Virus record (IMG/VR): IMGVR_UViG_3300035190_000668
Length of the DNA: 20,000 nucleotides
DNA from: an uncultured virus (IMG/VR IMGVR_UViG_3300035190_000668)
Lineage: Duplodnaviria; Heunggongvirae; Uroviricota; Caudoviricetes
Direction: 5' to 3' (one strand)
Both the position numbers and the translations under genes were made by a program. Of this stretch, positions 1-19,028 are shown in pieces. Within the stretch, counting starts at the first letter, position 1. Each line of letters opens with the position of its first letter. The notes under the pieces are model-generated. The model did not search any database and was not told where the DNA came from. It saw only the letters and a list, made by a program, of their open reading frames with translations.

Positions 1-164
1 CTAGTAATATCCATCTGATATGTCTCAACATTATCTGAAACAAGTTCATTAACTTTAGAAAGGTTCCTAGAAACAGCTATTACCTTATATCCATTCTCAG
101 ATAGAAGTTTTACTGTAGCATAGCCAACGCCCTTGCTAGCCCCCGTTACTATGGCTGTTTTCAA
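1..164 (-). CDS. Short-chain dehydrogenase/reductase (SDR), N-terminal part; runs off the window
   Basis: Not in the ORF track. A TTG at 164, 1 nt after the upstream stop, reads MKTAIVTGASKGVGYATVKLLSENGYKVIAVSRN..., with the classical TGxxxGxG Rossmann motif. Confidence 0.85.
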   Translation of the reverse strand, partial: MKTAIVTGASKGVGYATVKLLSENGYKVIAVSRNLSKVNELVSDNVETYQMDIT

Positions 165-165
165 A

Positions 166-807
166 TTAATGAATCCAGTGTTGTGGAACCATATACTTAA
201 AGCCACTCTTAACTAAGTGTGCTGTATGGTGATATGGAGGCGAAGGAGGGAAAACAATAACGCTTCCTGCCTCTGGCTTTACATAAAACGTAAAAGAATT
301 GTCTTGAGCTTTTGCAAGATCCATATCAGGGTGAGGTCCACCATTATACATTGGTCCGTCAGGTGATCCGATTGTAAATGAAATCTCTCCGCCTTCGTAA
401 TCATCATTTAAGTACATTACAAAAGAAACCTTTAGTCTTTCATCCCCTTCTTGTTGGTCAAAGTGTGCCCCCATGTATGTTCCTGCTTGATACTTCTTAA
501 TAGGGTACATATCAAAAAGTTTTGGTTCTTCTGTAATACCCTGAGCTTTTGCATAGTCTCTAGCTACAACATCAAAAGCATCTTTTAAGGTATTGTAGAT
601 ATAATCATTGTTAGCATCTTTAATTCCCTGAGATTCTGAAGAAGATATGCTTCTATCAGTTCCATACACATAATGCTCCCCGCTGCATGCAGCCCATTCG
701 CCCCAGTTTGTTGACTCATCGCCTTCAATTGCAGCCATTAACTTCTTTGGATCTTCAATTACGTTTGTGTAGTAGTAGACCTTTTCTTCTAGGATGTTTT
801 TATTCAT
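166..807 (-). CDS. 2OG-Fe(II) oxygenase, prolyl-4-hydroxylase-like
   Basis: HFD...YLNDDYEGGEI...FPP...HHTA..V.SG.K: HxD...H iron triad plus a basic 2OG-binding residue. Confidence 0.9.
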   Translation of the reverse strand: MNKNILEEKVYYYTNVIEDPKKLMAAIEGDESTNWGEWAACSGEHYVYGTDRSISSSESQGIKDANNDYIYNTLKDAFDVVARDYAKAQGITEEPKLFDMYPIKKYQAGTYMGAHFDQQEGDERLKVSFVMYLNDDYEGGEISFTIGSPDGPMYNGGPHPDMDLAKAQDNSFTFYVKPEAGSVIVFPPSPPYHHTAHLVKSGFKYMVPQHWIH

Positions 808-820
808 CTGTATTCTCCAT

Positions 821-1483
821 TCATGAGTACTTGTTGTCTTGATAAAAGTTTGAAACCTTTACAAATCCTACTATAACATATCTTATGGGTCCTTCTCCAA
901 CATGCTTAACGCCATGCTCATGCTCTTCATCCCCTGGGAAAAACAGCAAATCTCCTGGTTTTGGCCTCAAAGATATATCAAGATTTGGAAAGAAAATTTC
1001 TCCATCTATATACTCATCGTTTAAATAAATTATAGTGGCATATTTTATTGATGGGTCTGTATGTTGATCTGTGTGAGACTTTAACTCTACGCCTGGCTGC
1101 ATTCTTTGAATTGTTGCAAGTCCGCTCAAGTTTAACTCTGGATCACACTGTGTAACTATATCATTAAGCCTATCATAAAATATTTTTTGTTCTTTATGAT
1201 TTGTAATATTTAAATTTTTATCAACCCAGTTTTGAGTAATTTCAAATTTGCCTTCAGCAACAAGGTTATCAACATCATCTCTTCCAAATTTTTCTAAACA
1301 AAAAATTTTTAAGTTGCTCATATATTCTACTTCCCAATCTGCTTGGGATGCCCCATCTATTATATTTAGAACAAAATCAAGCTCATCTTTGTTTAAGAAG
1401 TTTTTTATACAAATTATATTATTTGTAATTTCTTCAAATATAAAGTTGTCTTCTTTAAGTTTTTCCTTAAAGGTTTCAAGCAT
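821..1483 (-). CDS. 2OG-Fe(II) oxygenase, prolyl-4-hydroxylase-like
   Basis: HTD...YLNDEYIDGEIFFP...HGV..V..G.IRY. Start placed at ATG 1483, which overlaps the upstream stop; 1495 is an alternative. Confidence 0.9.
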   Translation of the reverse strand: MLETFKEKLKEDNFIFEEITNNIICIKNFLNKDELDFVLNIIDGASQADWEVEYMSNLKIFCLEKFGRDDVDNLVAEGKFEITQNWVDKNLNITNHKEQKIFYDRLNDIVTQCDPELNLSGLATIQRMQPGVELKSHTDQHTDPSIKYATIIYLNDEYIDGEIFFPNLDISLRPKPGDLLFFPGDEEHEHGVKHVGEGPIRYVIVGFVKVSNFYQDNKYS

Positions 1484-2231
1484 TTGGAATCTCATCAGAC
1501 TTGTACTTATTTCCGTCCTTGTCTAATTTCCAGCCTTGCTTCAATAGCTCTTGCCACTCTGCTCTTTCAATTTCTTGCTTTGCCCTAGTTTCTTTCATTT
1601 CTGCTGCCCAAGCATCTCTAACTTCTTGAGGGTAAGCATCTTCTTCTCTATCATCCCAAAAAGATCCTATAGTATATCTTACACCACTAGTAATAAGAGA
1701 TACTTCGTGCATATTATTAAATCCTCCGTCAAAAACAGCAAGCATTCCAACCTTTGGTTGAATCTCTATATTTTGATCTGGGAATCTAAGAAGTCCGCCT
1801 TCAAATTCATCATTAAGGTATAAAAATCCAGCATATCTACTTCTTGTAAAAGCACCAGAGTTTCCGTGCTCATCAGTGTTGTCAGAATGTACTCTAGCGT
1901 ATGCTCCTGGCTCCCATTTTTGTGTATGGTATCCAATCTTTGAAATTATTTTTGGGTCAAGATCATGTACTGATGCAATTGCTTCTGGCATTATTTTTTC
2001 AATATCTGAAAAAATTGTTGGTACCAAACCAGCGTCAACAACTTCTTGATCATTGTCTTGTGGTAGCACAGATGAGTATGACTCATAAAAAGATATTGGC
2101 ATCCAAGAAAGCTTGCCATTTTCTGCCTGAGCATCTAAAGCATTAACCATTTTTTGACACTCTTCTTTACTTATAAAGTCTTCATAAACAACTATGTCTT
2201 TTGTTAACCTTACTTTATTATCTAGGTTCAT
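1476..2231 (-). CDS. 2OG-Fe(II) oxygenase, prolyl-4-hydroxylase-like
   Basis: HSD...YLNDEFEGGLLRFP...HEV..ITSGVRY; ATGA overlap with the upstream gene. Confidence 0.9.
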   Translation of the reverse strand: MNLDNKVRLTKDIVVYEDFISKEECQKMVNALDAQAENGKLSWMPISFYESYSSVLPQDNDQEVVDAGLVPTIFSDIEKIMPEAIASVHDLDPKIISKIGYHTQKWEPGAYARVHSDNTDEHGNSGAFTRSRYAGFLYLNDEFEGGLLRFPDQNIEIQPKVGMLAVFDGGFNNMHEVSLITSGVRYTIGSFWDDREEDAYPQEVRDAWAAEMKETRAKQEIERAEWQELLKQGWKLDKDGNKYKSDEIPNA

Positions 2232-3094
2232 TTGATCCTTCTTTCTTTTTCGGCACTGATTTTATTTGGATGATCATCTCTAAACTTTTGCATAATGTCT
2301 GGCTGCATTTCTGCCCAAAGAGCAGACCCAAACTCTTTTTCTTTTTCAAACCATTCGGCATCTCCAGGGGAGTACTTCATCCAGTACATTCTTGATAAAT
2401 ACTTATTTGATCCAGTGGCTGGCATTACTCCATGAAGATATACGGACCCATTCTTTTTTAATATATCTGGGTGACCTGATGGGAACACCAAAAAATCTCC
2501 CGCCTCTGGCTTATACATGTAGGCTTCTCCATCAACTATAAAGTCAATCTCTCCACCTTCATAGTCATCATTAAAATAGGCAAGTGCCGTTATTGCAAAC
2601 TTATATCCTGGACTAACGATAGGCTCTCTAATATAGTCAGAGTGGTATGTCATTGCAACTTCATCCTGAATGTCTGTTCTATACCTTGCAATTGAAGGGC
2701 CAGTCATTCTCCACTCTTTTATGGGCTCTCCGCTATTTGTTAAAACATCTCTTTCTGTGTCAAAATCAACATTGTTTTTAACGGCATAGTCTTGTGTTAC
2801 TAAATAAAAGTTTTTAAATAGTTCTAAAATTGCTAGCTTTTGTTTTTCTTGTTTTTCTGTTTTTGTTTCTATAGCCTCAATATACTCTATTGAAAGACCG
2901 TGTGGATGATTTGCAAAAGTTGGGTTTAGGTATGTACCAAATAGTGACCACTGTGTCCAAGGACTAAACAAGCCATCATCTTCTCCATTAGAGTTTTTTA
3001 GTTCTGAATATGTTGAATCTATATCTTTAAAAACATTCTTGTATACAAAAATTTGAGGATAGATTTCAATTGGATCTAAAACTTTTTCTGTCAT
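2228..3094 (-). CDS. 2OG-Fe(II) oxygenase, prolyl-4-hydroxylase-like
   Basis: HSD...YFNDDYEGGEI...FPS...HGV......KY. Start moved from 3130 to ATG 3094 (MTEKVL), which gives an ATGA overlap with the upstream stop. Confidence 0.88.
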   Translation of the reverse strand: MTEKVLDPIEIYPQIFVYKNVFKDIDSTYSELKNSNGEDDGLFSPWTQWSLFGTYLNPTFANHPHGLSIEYIEAIETKTEKQEKQKLAILELFKNFYLVTQDYAVKNNVDFDTERDVLTNSGEPIKEWRMTGPSIARYRTDIQDEVAMTYHSDYIREPIVSPGYKFAITALAYFNDDYEGGEIDFIVDGEAYMYKPEAGDFLVFPSGHPDILKKNGSVYLHGVMPATGSNKYLSRMYWMKYSPGDAEWFEKEKEFGSALWAEMQPDIMQKFRDDHPNKISAEKERRIK

Positions 3095-3765
3095 GGCTTT
3101 CTGTCTCCTGTATGCTCTGTTATTTCCCAAAAGAAAGGACAGGTATATCTAACTCCACTCTTAATTTCTGTTACTCCGTGAATATAATTCATATCACCTG
3201 GGAAAAAATAAGCAGCGCCTTTCTTGGGCTTAAACTGAACACCTTGTTTTGGGAAGTATAACTCTCCACCTTCATAATCTTCATTCAAATAAAACAGACT
3301 TGACAGATCATAGTTTGGAAAATCGTTTGGAAGTCCAGCATCTGGACCTTCGTGCAGTTCTTTGTCTGCGTGAGGGTTTTGAAACTGTCCTGGAAGCCAT
3401 CTAACAATTGTTGTTCCAGTTGGAATAACTCTTACTTTATAAAACTCTTCAACAATTGGCTTTAGTCTTTGAAACAAACCTGCAATAATTGGAGCAATAG
3501 CTGGATCATTTTTATCTAAAGATGGGCTTGTGCAAACTCTATCTTTCCAATAATCAGAGTCATAGACAACTGTTCCATTTTCATTAACATGACTTTCTGT
3601 TACATCCCATATAGTTAAAGATTTTGCAGCTTTTTCTAAAAACTCCATCTCTTCTACAGTCATAAAATTTTCCAGCTCAACGATCATGTCTTTCCCATCA
3701 CCAAACCAACCAGAAGGGGTTAAAGATGGCTTTCTAACCACAACAGATGCATTTATATTATCCAT
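3091..3765 (-). CDS. 2OG-Fe(II) oxygenase, prolyl-4-hydroxylase-like
   Basis: HAD...YLNEDYEGGELYFP...HGVTEIKSGVRY. Confidence 0.9.
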   Translation of the reverse strand: MDNINASVVVRKPSLTPSGWFGDGKDMIVELENFMTVEEMEFLEKAAKSLTIWDVTESHVNENGTVVYDSDYWKDRVCTSPSLDKNDPAIAPIIAGLFQRLKPIVEEFYKVRVIPTGTTIVRWLPGQFQNPHADKELHEGPDAGLPNDFPNYDLSSLFYLNEDYEGGELYFPKQGVQFKPKKGAAYFFPGDMNYIHGVTEIKSGVRYTCPFFWEITEHTGDRKP

Positions 3766-3767
3766 AA

Positions 3768-4499
3768 TTAGATTATACCATTTCCTTTGTTAGTACGACT
3801 ATCAATCACAGAAAGCCTTAAAGCCTTTACTTCGTGACTACCCAAAGATTCTCCTTTTTCATTTACTGCATCTCTATACCAGTCGGTCCATGATCCAGAA
3901 GAGTTTACAACTTGTGCTGCAGTTCCATAGGAAACATTTGCATCCATTCTTTTTCTATCTTCGTCTTTGTAGTCAAGTATCTCAATAGAAGAATTGTTTA
4001 GGGTTGATAAAGAAATGGGTATTATTGTTGCCAATGGAGTATGTGCTTTAATTGTTACTTTTTCCCCTGACTTTTTTGCTTTTATTGCAAGTGGCAAGGG
4101 ATTATCATAAAAAGATGTACTGATAAGGTTAGACATAGTTTCAAAATCATTGCTAAAAAAGTTTACTGGGTTTATGGTAAGCATGCTTATGTCTTCAGAT
4201 GTTCTAAAAACTAATCCCGTGTTTAGGCTTATGGTTGACTGACCTCTTCCACCGTAAGAACCTTCTGGTGCTTTAATTATCTCAATATGATCTTGAGTTT
4301 GATCGTTTATGCCATCCCAAACAAACTCTATGTCTTGGTCACAAGAAAGGCTCCAGCCAACCACATTTGATTGTGTTACTGGAAAGCACCTATATGCGTG
4401 ACCTTCTGATGTTTCATCCATCCAGTCTCTTTTTATTGACATTGGCAAAATACTAAATGATGAACCATTCATCTTTTCAGCAAATATATTTAACATCAC
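3768..4499 (-). CDS. DUF6065-like protein
   Basis: KRDWMDET...HAYRCFPVTQSN..GW motif resembles DUF6065; P.ATIIPI near the C-terminus; no HxD...H triad. Confidence 0.65.
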   Translation of the reverse strand: MMLNIFAEKMNGSSFSILPMSIKRDWMDETSEGHAYRCFPVTQSNVVGWSLSCDQDIEFVWDGINDQTQDHIEIIKAPEGSYGGRGQSTISLNTGLVFRTSEDISMLTINPVNFFSNDFETMSNLISTSFYDNPLPLAIKAKKSGEKVTIKAHTPLATIIPISLSTLNNSSIEILDYKDEDRKRMDANVSYGTAAQVVNSSGSWTDWYRDAVNEKGESLGSHEVKALRLSVIDSRTNKGNGII

Positions 4500-5155
4500 T
4501 CTGCCTCTGGAACGTACATCTCTGGAGTATGAAACTTTTTGTTATAGTCTAACATCGTAACAATTGAATATTTTGTTCCTGATGTTACTGGCATTGCTTT
4601 ATGTGGATACATAAAGTTTGAAGGGAATATATAGAGATCTCCAGCTTTTGGCTTAATCTTTAAGTCTTGTAACCTAAAGTACAATTCTCCACCTTCGTAA
4701 TCATCGTTTACATATGACACTAAAGAAACAGTACAGTTATAAGAAAACCCGTGGTCGTGGTGCTCCTGAAAATGTTGACCTGGGCCATACTTGATAAAGT
4801 TAAAAGCTTCCCAATACTTTAAATCCATAATGTTATAGTCTTTTCTATAGTCTTCAACTGCTGGGGATTGTGCATCATATACATCTTGCCACAGTGATTG
4901 AAGATTTAAAGATGTCTGACTCTTATCTTGCTCAATATCTGTTTTTTTAAATTTAAAGTCATTGCAGTCTCTATATTCTGGCATTAACTGTTGGTATCCT
5001 ACATAGGCAGGAAGCCAACTATATCCAGTTTTATCTCCTACTGGCTTTAAGTTAGACTCTAATCTTCCTATTACGTCAATATCACTTTTGATTACATCTC
5101 TATAGCAAACAATACCGTTGCCTAGATTTTCTTTTGAGCTCCAAGTGTTCATCAT
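4496..5155 (-). CDS. 2OG-Fe(II) oxygenase, prolyl-4-hydroxylase-like
   Basis: KYGPGQHFQEHHD...YVNDDYEGGELYF...FPSNFMYPHKAMPVTSGTKY. Confidence 0.92.
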   Translation of the reverse strand: MMNTWSSKENLGNGIVCYRDVIKSDIDVIGRLESNLKPVGDKTGYSWLPAYVGYQQLMPEYRDCNDFKFKKTDIEQDKSQTSLNLQSLWQDVYDAQSPAVEDYRKDYNIMDLKYWEAFNFIKYGPGQHFQEHHDHGFSYNCTVSLVSYVNDDYEGGELYFRLQDLKIKPKAGDLYIFPSNFMYPHKAMPVTSGTKYSIVTMLDYNKKFHTPEMYVPEAE

Positions 5156-5161
5156 TACCCC

Positions 5162-5941
5162 TTATTTATATTCTCTTCTAGTCCAGACATGGTTTTTATA
5201 AATACCGCCATCTGGTTGACGGTAGAATTTCATGTTATTCATCATTTTATCATAAATTTCTTTGTCTTTTAAAAATTCTAACTTATGATCCCAGTTTTCT
5301 CTTTTAAAAGGAAGGATCTGCAAGTATGGTGTTCCTGCTGGTATTGTTCCTTCCCAATCTTTTGCTATAAAAAACGGAAATGTTCCTAATAGATGAACCT
5401 TGTCGCTATCTACAATTCCTGTTGTATTCATAAAAGGTAGATCAAATCTATTCATTGGAGTCATAAACAAAGCGCTGTATCCTTCAGGTAGCTCTATGCC
5501 CCATCCTGAGTACCAGGCAAAGTGATCTTTATAAAATCCTTCTGGATGCTCAAACTGAGGCATTGCAAGTCTTCTTGTACAGAAATCTTTGTTTTTAGGA
5601 TCATCAATTTTTACATCTATTGATCCTTCTGGTGTTTTAAAGAATGTAATATCACATGGTGTTTTTAAAACATACCCTGTTGAAAAACCATCCATAATTG
5701 CTGGGCATGCCTTCCAAGTTGGTATCTTTCCGTAATCATCTGTAGTTCCTTCTTTTGGAAAGGGACACACCTCTTTAGGTGCTTTATAGTATTCACCATT
5801 AGGCATTTTTGCAAATCTATCTGCATCTTTATACCATTTTGGAATTTCATTTTGTGTTGGAGTCGGAACTGATGGGTTTTCAGAATTTACCCAAGATCTA
5901 TAAGATCTAAATATTGCAGTCTGCGATATTTGTTCAGTCAT
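5162..5941 (-). CDS. Conserved phage protein, DUF6065-related (IPxWYK...KxCP type)
   Basis: IPKWYK...TWKACPAIMD...GY...P.NRFDLPF...GIVDSD...GTPYLQILPFKRENW; TAATG coupling to the upstream gene. Confidence 0.55.
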   Translation of the reverse strand: MTEQISQTAIFRSYRSWVNSENPSVPTPTQNEIPKWYKDADRFAKMPNGEYYKAPKEVCPFPKEGTTDDYGKIPTWKACPAIMDGFSTGYVLKTPCDITFFKTPEGSIDVKIDDPKNKDFCTRRLAMPQFEHPEGFYKDHFAWYSGWGIELPEGYSALFMTPMNRFDLPFMNTTGIVDSDKVHLLGTFPFFIAKDWEGTIPAGTPYLQILPFKRENWDHKLEFLKDKEIYDKMMNNMKFYRQPDGGIYKNHVWTRREYK

Positions 5942-6654
5942 TACTTATGACCTATCTCATTTATATCTGTCATAATAACAACACAATATTTTGTACCAGA
6001 CTCCATTGGAAGTGAGGCATGCTCATAAATATAGTTTGATGGAAATACTGCTATGTCTCCAACTCTTGGTTTGTATACCAAGTTATCTAGTCTTGGAAAC
6101 TTTAAATCCCCGCCAACATAGTCATCATTTATATAGATCACAGCAGAAACTGTGCAATTATAAGCAGGCCCATGGTCTGCATGAATATTAAAATGTGTGC
6201 CAGCACCTTCATATTTTACAAAGTTAAAAGCTTCGTAATACACTACATTAATGCCCCAATACTGTGCATAATCATCTATACAATACTTTAGTTTTTGATA
6301 AATTTCTTCATGCAGATCTATTAATTCAGAGTTATACTCATCTCTTGGCCCTAAGTTTTCCTGTTTATATTTAAAGTCTACTGCGTCCCTTGCTTTTTTA
6401 ATTGGAACTGTAGAGTTTGTTACTTGTGCTTCTGACCACTTATACTTGGAACCAGTTGACAAATTGGACTCAAGGGTGTTGATATATCTTTTTGAATCCT
6501 CTAAAGAAAATGTGTTGTGGTACACATGTAGACCTAGCCCTAAATTTTCAACAATAAATCTATTGTCTAGCACTCTTTCGGGCACTCTGTTTGATGCTGT
6601 CTCTGACCTGTCTTTTGTAAACCATGGGTTTTCATTTTCATTGTAGATATCCAT
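5941..6654 (-). CDS. 2OG-Fe(II) oxygenase, prolyl-4-hydroxylase-like
   Basis: HAD...YINDDYVGGDLKFP...FPSNYIYEHASLPMESGTKY. ATG 6654 follows GGGGTGG; GTG 6663 is an alternative. Close paralog of 4496-5155 (shared EAFNF.KY and YNCTVS). Confidence 0.92.
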   Translation of the reverse strand: MDIYNENENPWFTKDRSETASNRVPERVLDNRFIVENLGLGLHVYHNTFSLEDSKRYINTLESNLSTGSKYKWSEAQVTNSTVPIKKARDAVDFKYKQENLGPRDEYNSELIDLHEEIYQKLKYCIDDYAQYWGINVVYYEAFNFVKYEGAGTHFNIHADHGPAYNCTVSAVIYINDDYVGGDLKFPRLDNLVYKPRVGDIAVFPSNYIYEHASLPMESGTKYCVVIMTDINEIGHK

Positions 6655-6674
6655 TGTTACCACCCCTTTATTTT

Positions 6675-6683
6675 ATTATAACA
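6675..6683 (-). promoter_or_regulatory. Extended -10 promoter for the oxygenase operon
   Basis: TGTTATAAT on the minus strand about 20 nt before ATG 6654. Confidence 0.6.
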
Positions 6684-6731
6684 TAGTACTTCATAATACA
6701 CAACTTTTTAGCGTGTGCTAGCTCTCAAGGC

Positions 6732-6974
6732 TTAAGATTCTTTTCCCCATTTTCCAATAGGGCACTCCGCAATTTTAAGTGTCGTCTTTGCTTTCATAAT
6801 ACATCCACACTGTGTGCATTGAGTTGTTATTTTCATAAAATGATCACAGGACTTACATATTTCAAACCTTTTGTCTATTATTTCTTTATCTGTTATCCTG
6901 GCATCTGAATCTAACAAGTGCCAAGGCCTAGATGAGCCAATATTTTTTTTCCAATTTTCCCACGCCTCAGACAT
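6732..6974 (-). CDS. Small Cys-rich protein, DUF6171-like
   Basis: R..ICxxC...CxxCGC.M.xK......CP..KW pattern. Confidence 0.65.
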   Translation of the reverse strand: MSEAWENWKKNIGSSRPWHLLDSDARITDKEIIDKRFEICKSCDHFMKITTQCTQCGCIMKAKTTLKIAECPIGKWGKES

Positions 6975-6976
6975 TT

Positions 6977-7420
6977 TTAACTATCTAAATGCTGTGTAAG
7001 AACAGTGCCGTCCCAATTAAAGGTTTGTCCAATTGGATTTATTATATCTAGTGTATATTTAACCAAAATTGTTTCCCCCGAAAAAGCTGCCTCAAACATT
7101 TCTGAATCAGGAGAATTTATTTTCATGGTTGCTGAAAAAACTACCTTATCGTCACACAAAAAAACATACCTATTAATAGTATCAAGATATTCATTATCTA
7201 GCGGTGTTCCTAGATTAATGTTTCCACCAGTAAATGAAGTACCGTCCCACGTTGCTCCTCTTACTGCAGATGTTTTATGTTCTGCTGCATTCATTCCAGT
7301 TATTGGAAGTCCTGTTTCAATTGCTGCATCTAAAACCGTTGTATCGTGTTCAGGACTAAGAATAACTTTTTTAATGCAATCCCAAGTGTTGTTACTATTT
7401 TTTGTTAGTATAGCGTACAT
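6977..7420 (-). CDS. Hypothetical protein with two WDGT motifs
   Basis: 147-aa ORF with an AGGAG RBS; GATWDGTSFT and GQTFNWDGTV suggest an internal duplication. Confidence 0.7.
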   Translation of the reverse strand: MYAILTKNSNNTWDCIKKVILSPEHDTTVLDAAIETGLPITGMNAAEHKTSAVRGATWDGTSFTGGNINLGTPLDNEYLDTINRYVFLCDDKVVFSATMKINSPDSEMFEAAFSGETILVKYTLDIINPIGQTFNWDGTVLTQHLDS

Positions 7421-7457
7421 AAGGTTTTTCTCCTTTTATTAAAGTATATCATATGCA

Positions 7458-8567
7458 TTAGTAGTAACATCCACCACATAATGACTGGCATGTAGAAGAA
7501 CAGTTCCATGGTGGTGCATAGCAGTTAGCTCCACAGTTAAAGCTTGTAAAGGATGGAGGGAAGAATGGGAAGAACGGTGGGAAGAATGGGAAGAACGGGA
7601 AGAATGGAGGCGGGAAGTATGGAGGGAAGAAAGGTGGGAAGAACGGTGGGAAGAATGGGAAGAACGGTGGGAAGAATGGGAAGAACGGTGGGAAGAATGG
7701 TGGGAAGAAAGGAGGGAAGAACGGGAAGAATGGAGGGAAGAACGGTGGGAAGAACGGTGGGAAGAATGGCGGGAAGAAAGGTGGGAAGAACGGGAAGAAC
7801 GGTGGGAAGAATGGGAAGAACGGTGGGAAGAATGGTGGGAAGAAAGGAGGGAAGAACGGGAAGAATGGAGGGAAGAATGGCGGGAAGAAAGGAGGAAAGA
7901 ATGGTGGGAAGAATGGAGGGAAGAACGGAAAGAATGGGAAGAACGGAGGAAAGAATGGACCAAAAGTAGAAACTACACCATTACTTGCTGCAGATGCAGG
8001 AGATGTTCCATTTGCATTTGTTGCGGTAACGGTATAAGTATAAGTTCCAGCAGTAACTTCTGTAATAGATATTGGTGTTGTTGTATTTGTTGCTGTTCTT
8101 CCAGAACTTGATGTAGCTGTAAAAACTGTTACTGTTTTATTACCTGTATTATTTGCTGTAAACGGAACAGACACTACACCAGAAGTTCCTCCAGATGCTG
8201 TTCCAATAGTTGGAGCCTGTGGTTTTGCAGTTGGTACAACCGCTCCTGATGCACTAGATGCTCCAGAAGTTCCCATTGCATTTGTTGCGGTAACAGTAAA
8301 AGTATATGATGATGCAGGAGCTGTATTTAGTCCTGAAACAACTATTGGCGATGAAGATCCTGATCCAGTAAGTCCTCCAGGAGAAGATGTAACTGTGTAG
8401 CTTGTTATTGGAAGTTTACCATCAAAGCTTGGGGCAGTAAAAGTTACAGATACCTGTCCAGCGTTATATGTAAGATTTGTTCCTACATCTGTACCAGTCC
8501 CAATTGTTGGTGGTAGCGGTGCTGACTTGCTTTGTGACTCAACAACACCAGGCTTTTTAGGACTCAT
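7458..8567 (-). CDS. Protein with two fibronectin type III-like domains, a 135-residue Pro/Phe tract and a Cys-rich tail
   Basis: Two P.PTIGT...V.V.FTA...YTFTVTATNA.GTS.AS.AS repeats; residues 204-338 are only P and F (one Y); the 31-aa tail has 6 Cys. Confidence 0.85.
   Translation of the reverse strand: MSPKKPGVVESQSKSAPLPPTIGTGTDVGTNLTYNAGQVSVTFTAPSFDGKLPITSYTVTSSPGGLTGSGSSSPIVVSGLNTAPASSYTFTVTATNAMGTSGASSASGAVVPTAKPQAPTIGTASGGTSGVVSVPFTANNTGNKTVTVFTATSSSGRTATNTTTPISITEVTAGTYTYTVTATNANGTSPASAASNGVVSTFGPFFPPFFPFFPFFPPFFPPFFPPFFPPFFPPFFPFFPPFFPPFFPPFFPFFPPFFPFFPPFFPPFFPPFFPPFFPPFFPFFPPFFPPFFPPFFPFFPPFFPFFPPFFPPFFPPYFPPPFFPFFPFFPPFFPFFPPSFTSFNCGANCYAPPWNCSSTCQSLCGGCYY
7554..7958 (-). repeat. 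Coding minisatellite of 9-nt (FFP) and 12-nt (FFPP) units
   Basis: 405 nt of ggg/aag/aa(t/c)-type units on the plus strand, including an exact 86-nt duplication (7657-7742 = 7792-7877). Confidence 0.95.
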
Positions 8568-8574
8568 GTCAGTA

Positions 8575-8583
8575 ATTGTACCA
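8575..8583 (-). promoter_or_regulatory. Extended -10 promoter, probably giving a leaderless mRNA
   Basis: TGGTACAAT followed by 7 nt and then ATG 8567; no SD sequence. Confidence 0.6.
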
Positions 8584-8608
8584 CATAAATAATACAGTTT
8601 TTCATATT

Positions 8609-9334
8609 TTACCTAACACTTACATATATAGAGTGAGCTACCATTGAGCATGGGTTATCCGTTAATATTTCTGGATATGCCCCAGAATCTTTCATTTTTT
8701 CGCTATCAATAAACAAGGTTTGTTCAAGGGATAGGTCATAGTCAAATTGATATTTTAGATTTCCCGCATACCCCACAACTGGATATGACCCTGGGCTAAA
8801 TGTCCTAAAAAGGACCTCTGTGTTATTGCTAAAGGTTGTTATTGTTATATCATAACGAACAGTTATAATTGATCCAACTTTGATATTTTTAAAATTAAGT
8901 TTTTGTGCTTTTGGGTTATATAGTGCAACATGGTTTTCTGGTAAGTAGTCTTCATTGTTTTTACCCTTGCAGTCTACACTAAATTTAACCCAACCATCAT
9001 TACCACAAGCAGCTCCAAGCTGAATACTGTTTTTATTTAAATTTGAATAATGTGCCCAACCATGTTTTTGTCCAGATAAAGATAGAACGCTTTCTCCAGG
9101 TATGCCATCTATGCCGTTCTTTCCGTCTTTTCCAGGCTTTCCAGGATCTCCTTTAGGTCCTTGCTTGCCTTCTGGCCCCTGCAGGCCCTGTAGACCGTTA
9201 TCTCCTTTTGGTCCACGTTCTCCTTGAGGTCCAGGTACAGCTATAAAAGAAACTGGCTGCTCAAGTTGATAGTTATTGTTTATTGTTTCAGAATATTTTT
9301 TTGGACTGCCTGGAAAATCCATGCTCTTTGCCAT
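8609..9334 (-). CDS. Collagen-like (Gly-X-Y) protein, probably a virion fibre or decoration protein
   Basis: 16 consecutive G-X-Y triplets (GPQGERGPK...GIPGES) followed by a beta-rich domain. Confidence 0.8.
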   Translation of the reverse strand: MAKSMDFPGSPKKYSETINNNYQLEQPVSFIAVPGPQGERGPKGDNGLQGLQGPEGKQGPKGDPGKPGKDGKNGIDGIPGESVLSLSGQKHGWAHYSNLNKNSIQLGAACGNDGWVKFSVDCKGKNNEDYLPENHVALYNPKAQKLNFKNIKVGSIITVRYDITITTFSNNTEVLFRTFSPGSYPVVGYAGNLKYQFDYDLSLEQTLFIDSEKMKDSGAYPEILTDNPCSMVAHSIYVSVR

Positions 9335-9340
9335 GGACTA

Positions 9341-9427
9341 CTATTTCTTTACCTTAAAAACCTTTTTTCCAATTTTAATAACTGGTGGTAGGTTTGGTTG
9401 AGATACTGTAACTTTGATCACAGGCAT
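9341..9427 (-). CDS. Small basic protein (28 aa)
   Basis: MPVIKVTVSQPNLPPVIKIGKKVFKVKK; TAATG overlap with the upstream stop, GGAGG upstream, and it fills the gap exactly. Confidence 0.65.
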   Translation of the reverse strand: MPVIKVTVSQPNLPPVIKIGKKVFKVKK

Positions 9428-10126: not shown

Positions 10127-10783
10127 CTAAAAAAGCCAATTATTGTTTTTTGCTAAATCACAGTACTTGATCTCTTGATCGTCTATTTTAACAATAAAAT
10201 CTGAAGTATAAACATACTTGTTTCCTTCGTGTTCTCCATGCAAAGGTGACAATAAATTAAAGTCTATATCGTCGTAATGTTTTTTTATTATGTCACTTAT
10301 TATATTAAAATGAATATATATTTCGCTATCTTTATACTTTGACACATTTTGTATATTTACTATTAGTTCATCAAGTATTTCTTTTGTAATTTTTGAATCT
10401 TTAATAGATGACATTGAGCCAATTATACAGCTACCGTCAGGCTGTTTTGGCATAACCACAAAGTTTTGTTTTTTTATATAGTTGTCAAAAACATGATCAA
10501 GAGGTATTTGGCAAAGAGAGTCCATATCTGTATAGAAACCACCCTTTAAATACAGAATGCACAATCTCCAAACATCTGCCTGAGTTACTGGAATTAATTT
10601 TTTATAGTAAGGGTATAGGTCCTGACTGTATTCTTTTATGTGCATCTCTCTTTCTTCGGAGCTACAGTACCTATACTCCCAACCTGGGTTTAAATTTTTC
10701 CATGTTAGTGATGCCATCTTGTAGTTATAGGACAAATTTTCGTATTTATTTTCATATGTTTGCCAAATTATTTTAGGTATCAT
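10127..10783 (-). CDS. Glycosyltransferase, GT32/OCH1-like (DxD sugar-binding domain)
   Basis: IPKIIWQT...W..LNPGWEY...ADVWRLCILYLKGGFYTDMD. Confidence 0.85.
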   Translation of the reverse strand: MIPKIIWQTYENKYENLSYNYKMASLTWKNLNPGWEYRYCSSEEREMHIKEYSQDLYPYYKKLIPVTQADVWRLCILYLKGGFYTDMDSLCQIPLDHVFDNYIKKQNFVVMPKQPDGSCIIGSMSSIKDSKITKEILDELIVNIQNVSKYKDSEIYIHFNIISDIIKKHYDDIDFNLLSPLHGEHEGNKYVYTSDFIVKIDDQEIKYCDLAKNNNWLF

Positions 10784-13024: not shown

Positions 13025-13220
13025 ATACTACTATAAGCCAATTCTGAGTATAGTATCAGAAAGTTATTTGGAAAATGCTAAAAAAGAATACGCCCCTCCA
13101 GTAGACATTGAAACAAGTGTAAAGCTTGTTGTTGAGGCAGAGACTGAAGAAGCATCTTACGAAACACTTTACGGCTTTGTTGATATCCGAATGTGGGAGA
13201 TAGACAAAGTTGAAGATTAA
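13017..13220 (+). CDS. Hypothetical protein
   Basis: TTG start preceded by AGGAGG; overlaps both neighbours. Confidence 0.65.
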   Translation: MPKYYYKPILSIVSESYLENAKKEYAPPVDIETSVKLVVEAETEEASYETLYGFVDIRMWEIDKVED

Positions 13221-13800
13221 TAGAATTTCTCCAGACCTTTACGAGATTGAGGATTTTGTAACTGTTGAACAACAGGTAGAGGTTCTGGAGTTTTTCAAGT
13301 CTTTAGACGAACAAGCCTGGTGGACAACACCAGAAGGACATGAGCAGCACGGGTTTTTCTATGGAAAACAATATCATGATAAGCGCCCAGATGTTTTTAA
13401 TCAAATAACTTCAAATGTTAGAAACCTTTTTAGCACATCTTTGTACATAGGAGATATAGGTTTACAAAGATATAAAATTGATGAAGCTATGCAAGAGCAC
13501 AGAGACTACTGGTTATATGATGAAGATTATCATATTAGGTATGGAATTGCTATTTACTATAACGATGACTACGAAGGTGGCGAAATCAGCTACCCCGAAC
13601 TAAATATTGTTCACAAGCCAAAAGCAAGATCTTTATTGATGCATGGTGGAAATATACTTCATGGAACCTTGCCTGTTACAAGCGATGATACAAGGTTTTT
13701 CTCAACAGCTTTTGTTAGAGGATCAGTTGAAAGTCCAGTTACCTTAGATCCAGAGTTGTTTGCTGAAGTTGAACTACATGACGGATCTAGTTATACATAG
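13210..13800 (+). CDS. 2OG-Fe(II) oxygenase, prolyl-4-hydroxylase-like
   Basis: HRD...YYNDDYEGGEISYP...HGTLPVTS..TRF. Confidence 0.88.
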   Translation: MKINRISPDLYEIEDFVTVEQQVEVLEFFKSLDEQAWWTTPEGHEQHGFFYGKQYHDKRPDVFNQITSNVRNLFSTSLYIGDIGLQRYKIDEAMQEHRDYWLYDEDYHIRYGIAIYYNDDYEGGEISYPELNIVHKPKARSLLMHGGNILHGTLPVTSDDTRFFSTAFVRGSVESPVTLDPELFAEVELHDGSSYT

Positions 13801-18159: not shown

Positions 18160-18300
18160 ATGAAGAAAAATAGTGAGGAATTAAGACGATTAATGGAATT
18201 ACGTCGTTCTAATGCAGCCTCCGCTGTCCCAAATAAAAAGAAATACAATAGAAAAAAATGTCAGTCCCTTATGCTAAAATTAAAGAAAGAAAGCGAGTAG
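18160..18300 (+). CDS. Small basic protein (46 aa), leaderless
   Basis: MKKNSEELRRLMELRRSNAASAVPNKKKYNRKK...; ATG 6 nt after TTGATA-17-TAAGAT (18125-18153). Confidence 0.6.
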   Translation: MKKNSEELRRLMELRRSNAASAVPNKKKYNRKKCQSLMLKLKKESE

Positions 18301-18305
18301 CCACC

Positions 18306-19028
18306 ATGACAAAATTACTCAGAAGCAAAGATAGGAAAGTAGCAAATGCCGTCACCCCTAATGGAAAACAAGCAAGTATCGCCAACACGTTTGGTCTCCC
18401 CGCAGGAAAGTCTTATTCATGTCCTGGAGCGACTAGCGTATGCGAGAGTGTTTGTTATGCTGGCAAATTGGAAAAAGTATTCCCAACAGTAAAGAAAAAC
18501 CTATTGCACAATTGGGAATTAGTCAAAAACGCAGACCATGACACTATTGAAGCATTGCTTGAAGAGATGATTAAAGATTTCAAGGCTGATTGTGTAAAGC
18601 GTGAAGCGCCTATGCTATTTCGTATTCATTGGGACGGAGATTTCTTTAATGATACTTATACATTCGCATGGAAGCATGTCATTCTTAATCATCCTGATAT
18701 TCAATTCTGGGTATACACTAGAGTGAAGAGTGCAGCGGTAATGCTTAAAGACATTGCTAATCTTTCTTTATACTATTCTACGGATAGTGAGAATAAGTCT
18801 ATTGGCGTTACCCTGAAAAAAGATCATGGCATAAAGCTTGCTTACCTTGCTAAGAATTTCTTAGTAGGACAGGCAGACATGAAAGAGATGATTGGTAAGG
18901 TAGGGGCTAAGTGCCCTGAGAATAAAAAAGCCATTCCCCTAATCTCAACAAATGGAAGCGCTTGCGTTTCTTGCTCATTGTGTGTATACTCAAAGAGCGA
19001 CATAGTATTCTCATCAAGTAAGAAATGA
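18306..19028 (+). CDS. Gp88-like (Gene88 family) Cys-rich protein with a radical-SAM-like motif
   Basis: FGLPAG..YSCPGAT.VC..VCYA...FRIHWDGDFF...FW.YTR...CP...AC..C.LC. Start moved to ATG 18306; own TGTCAG promoter at 18259-18280. Confidence 0.75.
   Translation: MTKLLRSKDRKVANAVTPNGKQASIANTFGLPAGKSYSCPGATSVCESVCYAGKLEKVFPTVKKNLLHNWELVKNADHDTIEALLEEMIKDFKADCVKREAPMLFRIHWDGDFFNDTYTFAWKHVILNHPDIQFWVYTRVKSAAVMLKDIANLSLYYSTDSENKSIGVTLKKDHGIKLAYLAKNFLVGQADMKEMIGKVGAKCPENKKAIPLISTNGSACVSCSLCVYSKSDIVFSSSKK

What the first reader, a model, noticed from the sequence alone, without database searches (positions are those of the whole stretch)
1..8567. Candidate phage post-translational modification system: a Pro/Phe-repeat protein followed by seven prolyl-hydroxylase-like oxygenases, two DUF6065-like proteins and an SDR
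Seen: the FN3/(FFP,FFPP)n gene is followed on the same strand by two small genes and then an unbroken run of 7 HxD...H 2OG-Fe(II) oxygenases, 2 DUF6065-like genes and an SDR, joined by overlaps or gaps of 13 nt or less. Established: this oxygenase clade includes prolyl 4-hydroxylases acting on Pro-rich peptides (collagen, extensin, chlorovirus P4H), and other 2OG enzymes beta-hydroxylate amino acid side chains. Inference: the 135-residue Pro/Phe tract is the dedicated substrate, with paralogs specialised for different positions (FP, PP or PF context, or Phe). The product would be a heavily modified virion fibre or, if the tract is proteolysed, RiPP-like peptides from a multi-core precursor. 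I know of no described system with this layout.
Basis: partly seen in the sequence, partly recalled or inferred. Interest (0 to 1): 0.9.

Follow-up and report, generated by a model that had tools for sequence, protein, structure and literature searches.

The report
Phage Pro-Phe fibre tract with hydroxylases
An uncultured phage ends a fibre-region protein in 135 residues of almost pure proline and phenylalanine and encodes seven proline-hydroxylase-like enzymes right behind it, which makes the tract a testable but unproven substrate for phage oxygenase arrays of unknown role.

Summary
On the minus strand of a 50.5-kb viral record, a 369-aa protein (two FN3-like domains, a 135-residue Phe/Pro tract, a 7-Cys tip) is followed by two small genes. 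Then come seven 2OG-Fe(II) oxygenases, two DUF6065-type proteins and an SDR.

All seven oxygenases keep the HxD...H iron triad. The one I modelled (O7) is structurally closest to peptidyl-prolyl 4-hydroxylases. The DUF6065-type protein Da has a dUTPase fold with an invariant Cys. This matches the helper protein that Iyer et al. (2010) described in the Syn9 cyanophage dioxygenase array.

The tract travels with the cluster. In 72 of 72 related loci with enough upstream DNA, a tract gene sits directly before the cluster. Of 70 assessable loci found through the tract alone, 49 carry at least two oxygenase/DUF6065 genes within 6 kb downstream.

The reverse does not hold. Distant DUF6065 branches (0 of 46 loci) and Syn9 have no such tract.

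The best reading, at about 0.5, is that the enzymes hydroxylate the tract of a virion fibre. No chemistry is shown, and inherited synteny remains a live rival. I found no support for paralogue specialisation or for a RiPP reading.

This scan has already found the same system on at least 23 other genomes.

The parts
7458..8567 (-). Tract protein F: two FN3-like domains, a 135-residue (FFPP/FFP)n tract, and a 28-residue tip with 7 Cys
   Evidence: ORF. fn3 scores 27.8 bits.
7558..7958 (-). DNA tandem repeat that encodes the tract. Phe is TTC in 68 of 71 codons, against TTT in 118 of 133 in 12 other genes.
6977..7420 (-). 147-aa protein 'u', with no family match. It occurs downstream of tract genes that end in Cys-rich tips.
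6732..6974 (-). 80-aa Cys-rich protein 'z' (DUF6171, phrog_13558). It also goes with Cys-rich tips.
   Evidence: PF19668 scores 30.5 bits. phrog_13558 scores 2.9e-16.
5941..6663 (-). Oxygenase O7, with the HxD...H triad. The model is closest to peptidyl-prolyl 4-hydroxylases.
   Evidence: PF13640 scores 39.8 bits. Triad. Model pLDDT is 86.5. Foldseek gives PHD2, algal P4H and PBCV-1 vCPH at E 1e-9 to 8e-8.
5162..5941 (-). DUF6065-type protein Da: dUTPase fold with invariant Cys79. Its start overlaps the O7 stop by 1 nt.
   Evidence: phrog_7084 scores 1.6e-33. Model pLDDT is 92.7. The 11 best VIA matches are all dUTPases, Z 9.5-8.2. Invariant C79 in 60 sequences.
4496..5155 (-). Oxygenase O6
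   Evidence: PF13640 scores 58.2 bits. The best PDB sequence matches are lysyl hydroxylase LH3 at 7e-5 and B. anthracis P4H at 2e-4.
3768..4499 (-). DUF6065 protein Db. Its start overlaps the O6 stop by 4 nt.
   Evidence: PF19541 scores 92.7 bits.
3091..3765 (-). Oxygenase O5
   Evidence: PF13640 scores 40.1 bits. Triad.
2228..3130 (-). Oxygenase O4. It is absent from 20 of 55 related clusters.
   Evidence: PF13640 scores 31.0 bits..
1476..2231 (-). Oxygenase O3
   Evidence: PF13640 scores 36.9 bits. Triad.
821..1495 (-). Oxygenase O2
   Evidence: PF13640 scores 43.9 bits. Triad.
166..807 (-). Oxygenase O1
   Evidence: PF13640 scores 39.2 bits. Triad.
1..206 (-). First 68 residues of a short-chain dehydrogenase/reductase. 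The whole gene is 236 aa, at record positions 2010-2720.
8609..9334 (-). Collagen-like fibre protein directly upstream. It is the rival substrate.
   Evidence: PF01391 scores 39.9 bits. Tail-fibre PHROGs match. A collagen-like gene lies within 5 kb upstream of F in 10 of 44 related loci.

Best explanation
F is a fibre or whisker protein of the virion. Its FN3 domains anchor it, the (FFPP/FFP)n tract forms a stalk of variable length, and a rapidly exchanged tip ends it. Here the tip is a 7-Cys knot. It comes with the small genes u and z, which may be tip-specific helpers.

The cluster behind F is made together with the fibre genes. Its prolyl-4-hydroxylase-like oxygenases hydroxylate prolines of the tract. 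The two dUTPase-fold Cys proteins and the SDR carry out or assist further steps that are still unknown. The likely effect is to turn an otherwise extremely hydrophobic polymer into a soluble, stiff, possibly glycosylated stalk.

Shown: the gene content, the intact iron triads, the folds and the co-occurrence. Inferred: that F is in the virion, that the tract is the substrate, that the reaction is prolyl hydroxylation, and any role for the D proteins and the SDR.
For: 1. All 9 PF13640 oxygenases of the record that were aligned (7 from the cluster, 2 from elsewhere) keep H, D and H as invariant columns. A Lys or Arg follows about 10 residues after the distal His.

2. The O7 model (pLDDT 86.5) has peptidyl-prolyl hydroxylases as its best Foldseek matches: PHD2, Chlamydomonas P4H with a (Ser-Pro)5 peptide, P. 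putida P4H, PBCV-1 vCPH and B. anthracis P4H. E-values run from 1e-9 to 2e-7. By sequence, O6 and O7 are closest to collagen lysyl and prolyl hydroxylases.

3. I fetched 80 loci through the Da protein alone, from 284 contigs with relatives at 74-100% identity. In 72 of the 72 with enough upstream DNA, a tract gene sits directly before the cluster. The other 8 were too short upstream.

Of the 79 loci fetched with flanks, 70 could be assessed and 49 carry at least 2 O/D genes within 6 kb downstream. I searched 10 of the 21 whole records behind the rest. Six hold PF13640 genes elsewhere, and the 4 without are fragments of 25-31% completeness.

5. The adjacency spans 9 clusters of the first D protein at under 55% identity, with different gene orders.

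6. The collagen-like gene is not a constant neighbour, being present in 10 of 44 loci. The tract is.

7. The cluster lies between fibre-type genes on both sides.

8. The record also holds a PF11397 glycosyltransferase (6e-20) and a GT25 enzyme. That PF11397 is the family of the Skp1 hydroxyproline GlcNAc-transferase is recalled, not tested.
Against: No chemistry or expression data exist for this system.

Nearly all supporting loci belong to one large phage group, so inherited gene order may explain the adjacency.

Distant branches of the DUF6065 family sit in viral contigs with 0-2 oxygenases and no Pro/aromatic tract within 8 kb, in 0 of 46 loci.

The described Syn9 array has a Da homologue: gp43, 23% identity, E 5e-8. 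The whole Syn9 genome nevertheless has 0 FFPPFFP or FFPFFP stretches.

Of the assessable tract loci, 21 of 70 lack 2 O/D genes within 6 kb.

Tracts that lie inside long proteins are mostly not next to the cluster: 16 of 17.

The record holds further oxygenases away from F.

Loss of O4 is unrelated to tract make-up.

Known P4H substrates are X-Pro-Gly or polyproline-type sequences (recalled). Phe-Phe-Pro has never been tested.
Confidence: 0.5

Rival explanations
1. The array acts on something other than F. Candidates are small molecules or peptides of secondary metabolism, as Iyer et al. proposed for Syn9, or host metabolites. On this reading the adjacency to the tract gene is inherited gene order at the end of the fibre module.
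For: Syn9's array has no tract gene.

Loci of distant DUF6065 branches have no tract in 46 of 46 cases.

Halovirus HF1 has a lone Da-like gene beside ribonucleotide reductase.

Oxygenases are scattered over this record.

Iyer et al. propose secondary-metabolite synthesis (PMC2938197, passages read).
Against: Tract adjacency holds in 72 of 72 loci. It persists over 9 D lineages with rearranged orders.

The cluster holds no halogenase, NRPS or other biosynthetic core gene.

The O7 fold is closest to protein prolyl hydroxylases, not small-molecule oxygenases. Only one such enzyme, PolD, appears among the first 25 rows.
Confidence: 0.25
2. The enzymes modify fibre proteins in general. Candidates are the collagen-like protein directly upstream, other fibre proteins, or the tips. 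The tract would not be their particular target.
For: The best sequence matches are collagen lysyl and prolyl hydroxylases.

A collagen-like gene with G-P-K and G-K-P triplets abuts F in this window.

Syn9's array also lies directly after tail-fibre genes gp32-gp40.

Distant D genes sit among fibre-type genes, for example 't C D t' in L239.

Iyer et al. proposed collagen-like and tail-collar proteins as substrates of other bacterial dioxygenase operons.
Against: A collagen-like gene lies within 5 kb upstream of F in only 10 of 44 related loci. The cluster is unchanged in the other 34.
Confidence: 0.15
3. RiPP-like reading: the tract is a multi-core precursor that is modified and then cut into peptides.
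For: The repeated core-like units and the many tailoring enzymes fit the idea. Some relatives carry an intein/Hint-like C-terminal part, but only below Pfam's cut-off: PF14890 at 2e-5 and 9e-5 in 2 of 12 proteins scanned.
Against: No protease, leader-recognition or export gene lies in the cluster. F starts with FN3 domains and lies in a fibre module. The tract is followed by variable tips or further domains.
Confidence: 0.05

Closest known systems
Tandem dioxygenase array of Synechococcus phage Syn9 (gp41-gp54), from Iyer, Abhiman, de Souza and Aravind 2010 (PMC2938197; passages read)
   Same: Both have many tandem classical 2OG-Fe(II) dioxygenases of several families. Both have a protein with a dUTPase fold and a conserved Cys: Syn9 gp43 matches Da at 23% identity, E 5e-8. 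Both lie directly behind tail-fibre genes.
   Different: Syn9 has two tryptophan halogenases and a JmjC/MINA member, and this cluster has neither. Syn9 has no Pro/Phe tract anywhere in its genome. The oxygenases are only about 27-33% identical over partial alignments. The authors proposed secondary-metabolite synthesis, not fibre modification.
Chlorovirus PBCV-1 prolyl 4-hydroxylase (vCPH, PDB 5c5t) with the virus's own Pro-rich repeats (Eriksson et al. 1999; recalled, not read)
   Same: Both are virus-encoded P4H-type enzymes alongside virus-encoded Pro-rich repeat proteins. 5c5t is among the structural matches of O7, at E 8e-8 and TM 0.54/0.70.
   Different: PBCV-1 has one enzyme and a eukaryotic virus host. 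Its substrates are Pro-Ala-Pro-Lys-type repeats (recalled), with no gene adjacency and no dUTPase-fold partner.
Collagen prolyl and lysyl hydroxylases (B. anthracis P4H 3itq/5hv0, human LH3, mimivirus L230 6ax6)
   Same: These are the best sequence matches of O6 and O7 among solved structures, at E 7e-5 to 4e-3. They are hydroxylases of repetitive structural proteins.
   Different: Their substrates are G-X-Y triplets, and the tract has no Gly. Identity is low and confined to the catalytic core.
Plant extensin-type Hyp-rich glycoproteins and their P4Hs (Chlamydomonas P4H 2jig/3gze)
   Same: The analogy is a Pro-rich polyproline-II substrate that is hydroxylated and then glycosylated. 2jig and 3gze are top structural matches. 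Glycosyltransferases are present in the record.
   Different: This is an analogy only. The Ser-Pro(n) motif differs from Phe-Phe-Pro(n), and glycosylation is untested here.

Membership tests
2OG-Fe(II) oxygenase superfamily, P4H-like branch (Pfam PF13640) | Profile score above Pfam's gathering cut-off | tested here: met
   7 of 7 cluster genes score 31.0-58.2 bits against a cut-off of 27.
2OG-Fe(II) oxygenase superfamily, P4H-like branch (Pfam PF13640) | HxD...H iron-binding triad, with a basic residue for the 2OG C5 carboxylate | tested here: met
   H161, D163 and H215 (O7 numbering) are invariant in all 9 aligned oxygenases. A Lys or Arg lies about 10 residues after the distal His in all 9. 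The assignment of this basic residue to 2OG binding is by analogy.
Peptidyl-prolyl 4-hydroxylase | Double-stranded beta-helix fold closest to solved protein prolyl hydroxylases | tested here: met
   The O7 model's top matches are PHD2, algal P4H, P. putida P4H, vCPH and BaP4H, at E 1e-9 to 2e-7. Only O7 was modelled.
Peptidyl-prolyl 4-hydroxylase | Hydroxylates peptidyl proline | not testable with these tools
   This needs an enzyme assay with mass spectrometry.
DUF6065 (Pfam PF19541) | Profile match above the cut-off | tested here: met
   This row is for Db only, which scores 92.7 bits against a cut-off of 26.6.
DUF6065 (Pfam PF19541) | Profile match above the cut-off, for Da | tested here: inconclusive
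   Da has no Pfam hit at E 0.01 or better. It shares phrog_7084 with Db. It aligns with Db at 21% identity. Its nearest Atlas clusters carry PF19541 on 12-23% of their members.
dUTPase / dCTP deaminase | Fold | tested here: met
   For the Da model, the 11 best of 48,161 chains are all dUTPases, at Z 9.5-8.2 with 108-129 residues aligned and rmsd 2.5-3.7. The Foldseek top rows are also all dUTPase or dCTP deaminase, at E 3e-3 and weaker.
dUTPase / dCTP deaminase | Sequence-level kinship and the five nucleotide-binding motifs | tested here: not met
   A profile of 60 family members finds no dUTPase among PDB sequences even at E 10. Structural alignments show 8-16% identity. A 'GIVDSD' stretch resembles dUTPase motif III, but that comparison is from memory only.
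Syn9-type tandem dioxygenase array (Iyer et al. 2010) | Several tandem classical 2OGFeDO genes plus a dUTPase-fold protein with a conserved Cys | tested here: met
   (invariant C79), and the passages read.
Syn9-type tandem dioxygenase array (Iyer et al. 2010) | Tryptophan halogenases and a JmjC/MINA member within the array | tested here: not met
   The cluster has no halogenase or JmjC hit. A sub-threshold JmjC/cupin gene lies elsewhere in the record.
RiPP biosynthetic cluster | Precursor with a leader, a recognition element, and a protease or exporter | tested here: not met
   None was found by Pfam, PHROGs or NCBIfam. The precursor candidate has FN3 domains.
Short-chain dehydrogenase/reductase | adh_short profile | tested here: met
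   146.2 bits over the whole 236-aa gene.

The most novel reading that the evidence does not exclude
The Phe/Pro tract is a new kind of heavily modified virion polymer. On this reading, a battery of seven prolyl-hydroxylase-type enzymes, two Cys-bearing dUTPase-fold enzymes of a new catalytic type and a reductase convert it into a hydroxylated stalk. The stalk may be further oxidised, cross-linked or glycosylated, and would be comparable to extensins or mussel adhesive proteins. It carries exchangeable Cys-knot tips with their own helper genes. If so, the long-unexplained phage oxygenase arrays would be fibre-tailoring systems that set host adsorption.
Probability: 0.3. Interest if true: 0.85.

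Novelty: new variant of a known kind. Interest (0 to 1): 0.66.

Why it matters
Tandem 2OG oxygenase arrays are among the most conspicuous unexplained gene sets of aquatic phages. They have been described since 2010, usually under the label of auxiliary metabolic genes.

In this system the array has a constant, unusual and easily synthesised candidate substrate next to it. That turns the open question of what these enzymes do into a direct experiment: peptide plus enzyme plus Fe/2OG, read by mass spectrometry.

If the tract is the substrate, phage fibres would carry collagen- or extensin-style post-translational chemistry. The dUTPase-fold Cys proteins would gain a first functional context.

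The phage group is abundant. O7 has 1133 relatives (clusters at 90% identity) with E of 1e-5 or better, on contigs up to 118 kb.

Tried and rejected
Complex prediction of O7 with Da (collected) gave 'no answer', with scores of 0.00 and 0.00. It is not evidence either way. The idea that each D protein is the partner subunit of the oxygenase before it therefore rests only on the 1-nt and 4-nt start/stop overlaps.

RNA runs: none was listed for window 3000-9400. This is no evidence on expression.

Cultured phages: megablast of window 1-8600 and tblastn of F found nothing. Db found nothing. Da found only 49 haloarchaeal virus records at under 30% identity.

GTDB genomes: the tract pattern matched 21 stretches. 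Tract plus O/D genes occur only on MAG contigs of up to 25 kb with low GC (0.35-0.49): L212, L220, L223, L224, L228. L225 holds the O/D cluster but no tract frame in my listing. The remaining matches are other reading frames or lack O/D genes. No host can be read from this, and I did not test the 'actinobacteria' host named in earlier notes.

NCBIfam gave only far sub-threshold PiuC-type hits.

Paralogue specialisation: O4 presence against tract features gave nothing.

Promoter and terminator scan: no excess over shuffles.

Literature: 'DUF6065' gave 0 papers. 'phage + tail fiber + hydroxyproline + oxygenase' gave 0. 'prolyl hydroxylase + bacteriophage + 2-oxoglutarate + virion' gave 0. Two broader searches listed no title on such a system, and I read listings only. 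Subscription journals are not covered.

Hint/intein tips, reported in earlier notes, reached only sub-threshold Pfam scores in 2 of 12 tract proteins scanned.

Full report
WHAT IS THERE

The window is positions 2515-22514 of a 50,533-bp linear IMG/VR virus record that CheckV rates 47% complete. Everything from 11875 down to 1 is coded on the minus strand. In reading order the genes are:
- several small fibre-type genes;
- a glycosyltransferase (10127-10783);
- a collagen-like fibre protein (8609-9334);
- the tract protein F (7458-8567);
- a 147-aa gene, u;
- an 80-aa DUF6171 gene, z;
- then O7, Da, O6, Db, O5, O4, O3, O2, O1 and an SDR.

All seven O genes pass Pfam's cut-off for PF13640, at 31.0-58.2 bits against 27. 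Db is DUF6065 at 92.7 bits. Da has no Pfam hit but shares phrog_7084 with Db. The SDR is whole in the record (236 aa).

After the SDR comes a plus-strand lysozyme-like gene, and then more fibre- and baseplate-type genes. The cluster therefore lies inside the fibre region.

THE TRACT IS REAL AND CODING

Residues 204-338 of F are 71 Phe, 63 Pro and 1 Tyr, arranged as 24 FFPP and 11 FFP units. All 134 Phe and Pro codons are fixed at positions 1 and 2, and they vary only at position 3. The frame continues from two FN3-like domains (fn3 at 27.8 bits). The ORFs that overlap the repeat in other frames are by-products of it.

The tract's codon choice is unusual. Phe is TTC in 68 of 71 codons, against TTT in 118 of 133 in twelve other genes. 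CCG makes up 17 of 63 Pro codons, against 2 of 147 elsewhere. My inference is that this avoids T-runs and perfect DNA repeats.

THE ENZYMES

Nine PF13640 oxygenases of the record were aligned: seven from the cluster and two from elsewhere. All keep the H, D, H triad as invariant columns, and a Lys or Arg follows about ten residues after the distal His.

O6 and O7 match collagen lysyl and prolyl hydroxylases best among solved structures, though weakly (7e-5 to 4e-3).

The O7 model (pLDDT 86.5) is closest to protein prolyl hydroxylases: PHD2, algal P4H, P. putida P4H, PBCV-1 vCPH and B. anthracis P4H. E-values run from 1e-9 to 2e-7 and TM-scores from 0.5 to 0.7. Only O7 was modelled.

Da belongs to a large family, with 1564 representatives at 50% identity with E of 0.001 or better. 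Its model is confident (pLDDT 92.7) and has a dUTPase fold. The eleven best of 48,161 chains are all dUTPases, at Z 9.5-8.2. There is no sequence-level kinship to any solved protein. Cys79 is invariant in 60 aligned members.

[quoted passage not shown] (2010) reported in the Syn9 array (PMC2938197, passages read). Syn9 gp43 matches Da at 23% identity, E 5e-8.

DOES THE TRACT GO WITH THE CLUSTER?

From the cluster side: Da has relatives on 284 viral contigs, and the best 80 (74-100% identity) were fetched. Of these, 72 had enough upstream DNA, and all 72 have a tract gene on the same strand directly before O7-Da-O6-Db-O5-(O4)-O3-O2-O1. The other 8 were too short upstream.

Of the 79 loci fetched with flanks:
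- 5 had no frame with five or more FFP units;
- 4 had under 3 kb of downstream DNA;
- 49 of the remaining 70 carry at least two O/D genes within 6 kb downstream;
- 21 do not.

I searched 10 of the 21 whole records behind those that do not. Six hold PF13640 genes elsewhere, often a full cluster just beyond the 6-kb window. The four without are fragments of 25-31% completeness. No record of 50% completeness or more that bears a tract lacked oxygenases, but none was 90% complete.

The adjacency spans nine clusters of the first D protein at under 55% identity, with different gene orders: ODODOOOO, OODD..., ooOD, ODOOOO and others.

A collagen-like gene lies within 5 kb upstream of F in only 10 of 44 near relatives. 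It is therefore not the constant partner of the cluster, and the tract is.

RESULTS AGAINST THE READING

Two distant branches of the DUF6065 family were used as queries. They sit in viral contigs with 0-2 oxygenases, or in D-only arrays. None of the 46 loci has a Pro/aromatic tract within 8 kb.

Syn9's array follows its tail-fibre genes, but the complete Syn9 genome has no FFPPFFP or FFPFFP stretch.

Halovirus HF1 has a lone Da-like gene beside ribonucleotide reductase.

This record holds more oxygenase-type genes away from F:
- two that pass PF13640;
- one sub-threshold PF13640 gene at window 13210-13800;
- a JmjC/cupin-like gene;
- an Asp/Arg hydroxylase.

The dependence is therefore one-sided. 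Tracts rarely come without such enzymes, but the enzymes often come without tracts. That fits enzymes with a wider range of fibre substrates. It also fits plain inherited synteny in one large phage group.

The presence of O4 (35 loci with, 20 without, at least 10 changes on the Da tree) shows no link to unit number, FFPP share, Tyr share or Pro share (p 0.47-0.69).

WHAT F LOOKS LIKE ACROSS PHAGES

Among near relatives the FN3 part is stable, at about 200 residues before the tract. The tract varies from about 20 to 142 residues. What follows the tract is highly variable:
- Cys-rich knots of many unrelated sequences;
- short Cys-free tails;
- amphipathic tails;
- further domains;
- sometimes an intein/Hint-like part, but only below Pfam's cut-off (2 of 12 proteins scanned).

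This is the pattern of a stalk that carries an exchangeable tip.

There is one new detail. Of 139 distinct tract proteins with at least 1.5 kb of downstream DNA, 40 of 45 with Cys-rich tips have u or z directly downstream. Only 3 of 70 with short Cys-free tips do. In the near clade the counts are 32 of 37 against 0 of 34. On the Da tree, 4 of 4 independent pairs agree, which is too few for significance (p 0.125). The genes u and z may therefore be tip-specific helpers, in the way tail-fibre chaperones follow their fibre. This is an inference.

MECHANISM

I think it most likely (about 0.5) that the cluster hydroxylates prolines of the tract. This would turn a very hydrophobic polyproline-II-type polymer into a soluble, stiff stalk. 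The D proteins and the SDR would act on or beside the product.

The gene content, intact catalytic residues, folds and co-occurrence are shown. The substrate, the reaction and the location in the virion are inferred. A complex prediction for O7 with Da gave no answer.

NOVELTY

Phage dioxygenase arrays with the dUTPase-fold protein are in print (2010). So is a viral P4H with viral Pro-rich repeats (PBCV-1, recalled).

The Pro/Phe tract as a constant neighbour and candidate substrate, and the u/z-tip link, were not found in five literature searches. The library searched lacks most subscription journals.

This scan has met the same system before on at least 23 other genomes. I re-tested its main claims here.

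Noticed in passing
window 7558-7958 (- strand): Codon choice is inverted inside the tract. Phe is TTC in 68 of 71 codons, against TTT in 118 of 133 in 12 other genes. CCG makes up 17 of 63 Pro codons, against 2 of 147 elsewhere. A 135-nt higher-order repeat (2.7 copies, 88% matches) suggests recent block duplication.
   Followed up: partly
window 6732-7420 (genes u and z): The two small genes after F go with Cys-rich tips of the tract protein: 40 of 45 against 3 of 70. On the Da tree, 4 of 4 independent pairs agree, p 0.125. They may be tip-specific helper genes.
   Followed up: partly
record G000:C1 46644-47965 (outside the window): An APS-kinase-like gene (PF01583, 2e-15) lies directly next to an Asp/Arg beta-hydroxylase (PF05118, 1e-15). 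This resembles the hydroxylase/PAPS neighbourhoods that Iyer et al. linked to collagen-like and tail-collar proteins.
   Followed up: no
record G000:C1 43550-44608 and 37550-39025 (outside the window): A PF11397 'GlcNAc' glycosyltransferase (6e-20) and a fused GT25+GT2 enzyme are present. From memory, both families include enzymes that glycosylate hydroxylated residues (Skp1 Hyp, collagen Hyl).
   Followed up: no
window 13210-13800 (+): A further oxygenase-like gene lies among small plus-strand genes. It scores just under Pfam's cut-off (PF13640, 24.1 bits against 27). Two more full PF13640 genes lie at record positions 31922-32575 and 33035-33751.
   Followed up: no
L234, L259, L272, L274, L276, L277 (distant viral contigs): Distant DUF6065 genes form D-only arrays (five in a row in L234) or sit directly after a DUF6171 gene (z-D pairs). 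No oxygenase cluster or tract is nearby.
   Followed up: partly
L230 (Syn9, record 21068-43144): The published Syn9 dioxygenase array gp41-gp54 starts right after the tail-fibre and fibre-assembly genes gp32-gp40. The array is in the same position relative to the fibre genes as in this window.
   Followed up: partly
L031, L047, L049, L077, L083 and others: Several phages carry two or three tract proteins. In the upstream ones the tract lies inside the protein and is followed by a further roughly 90-aa domain. Only the last one abuts the cluster.
   Followed up: partly
window 18258-19028 (+): There is a GP88-family gene (PF17338, 1.6e-49). The record also holds pstS, peroxiredoxin, DUF932 and a CHAP endolysin. 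No tRNA lies in the window.
   Followed up: no
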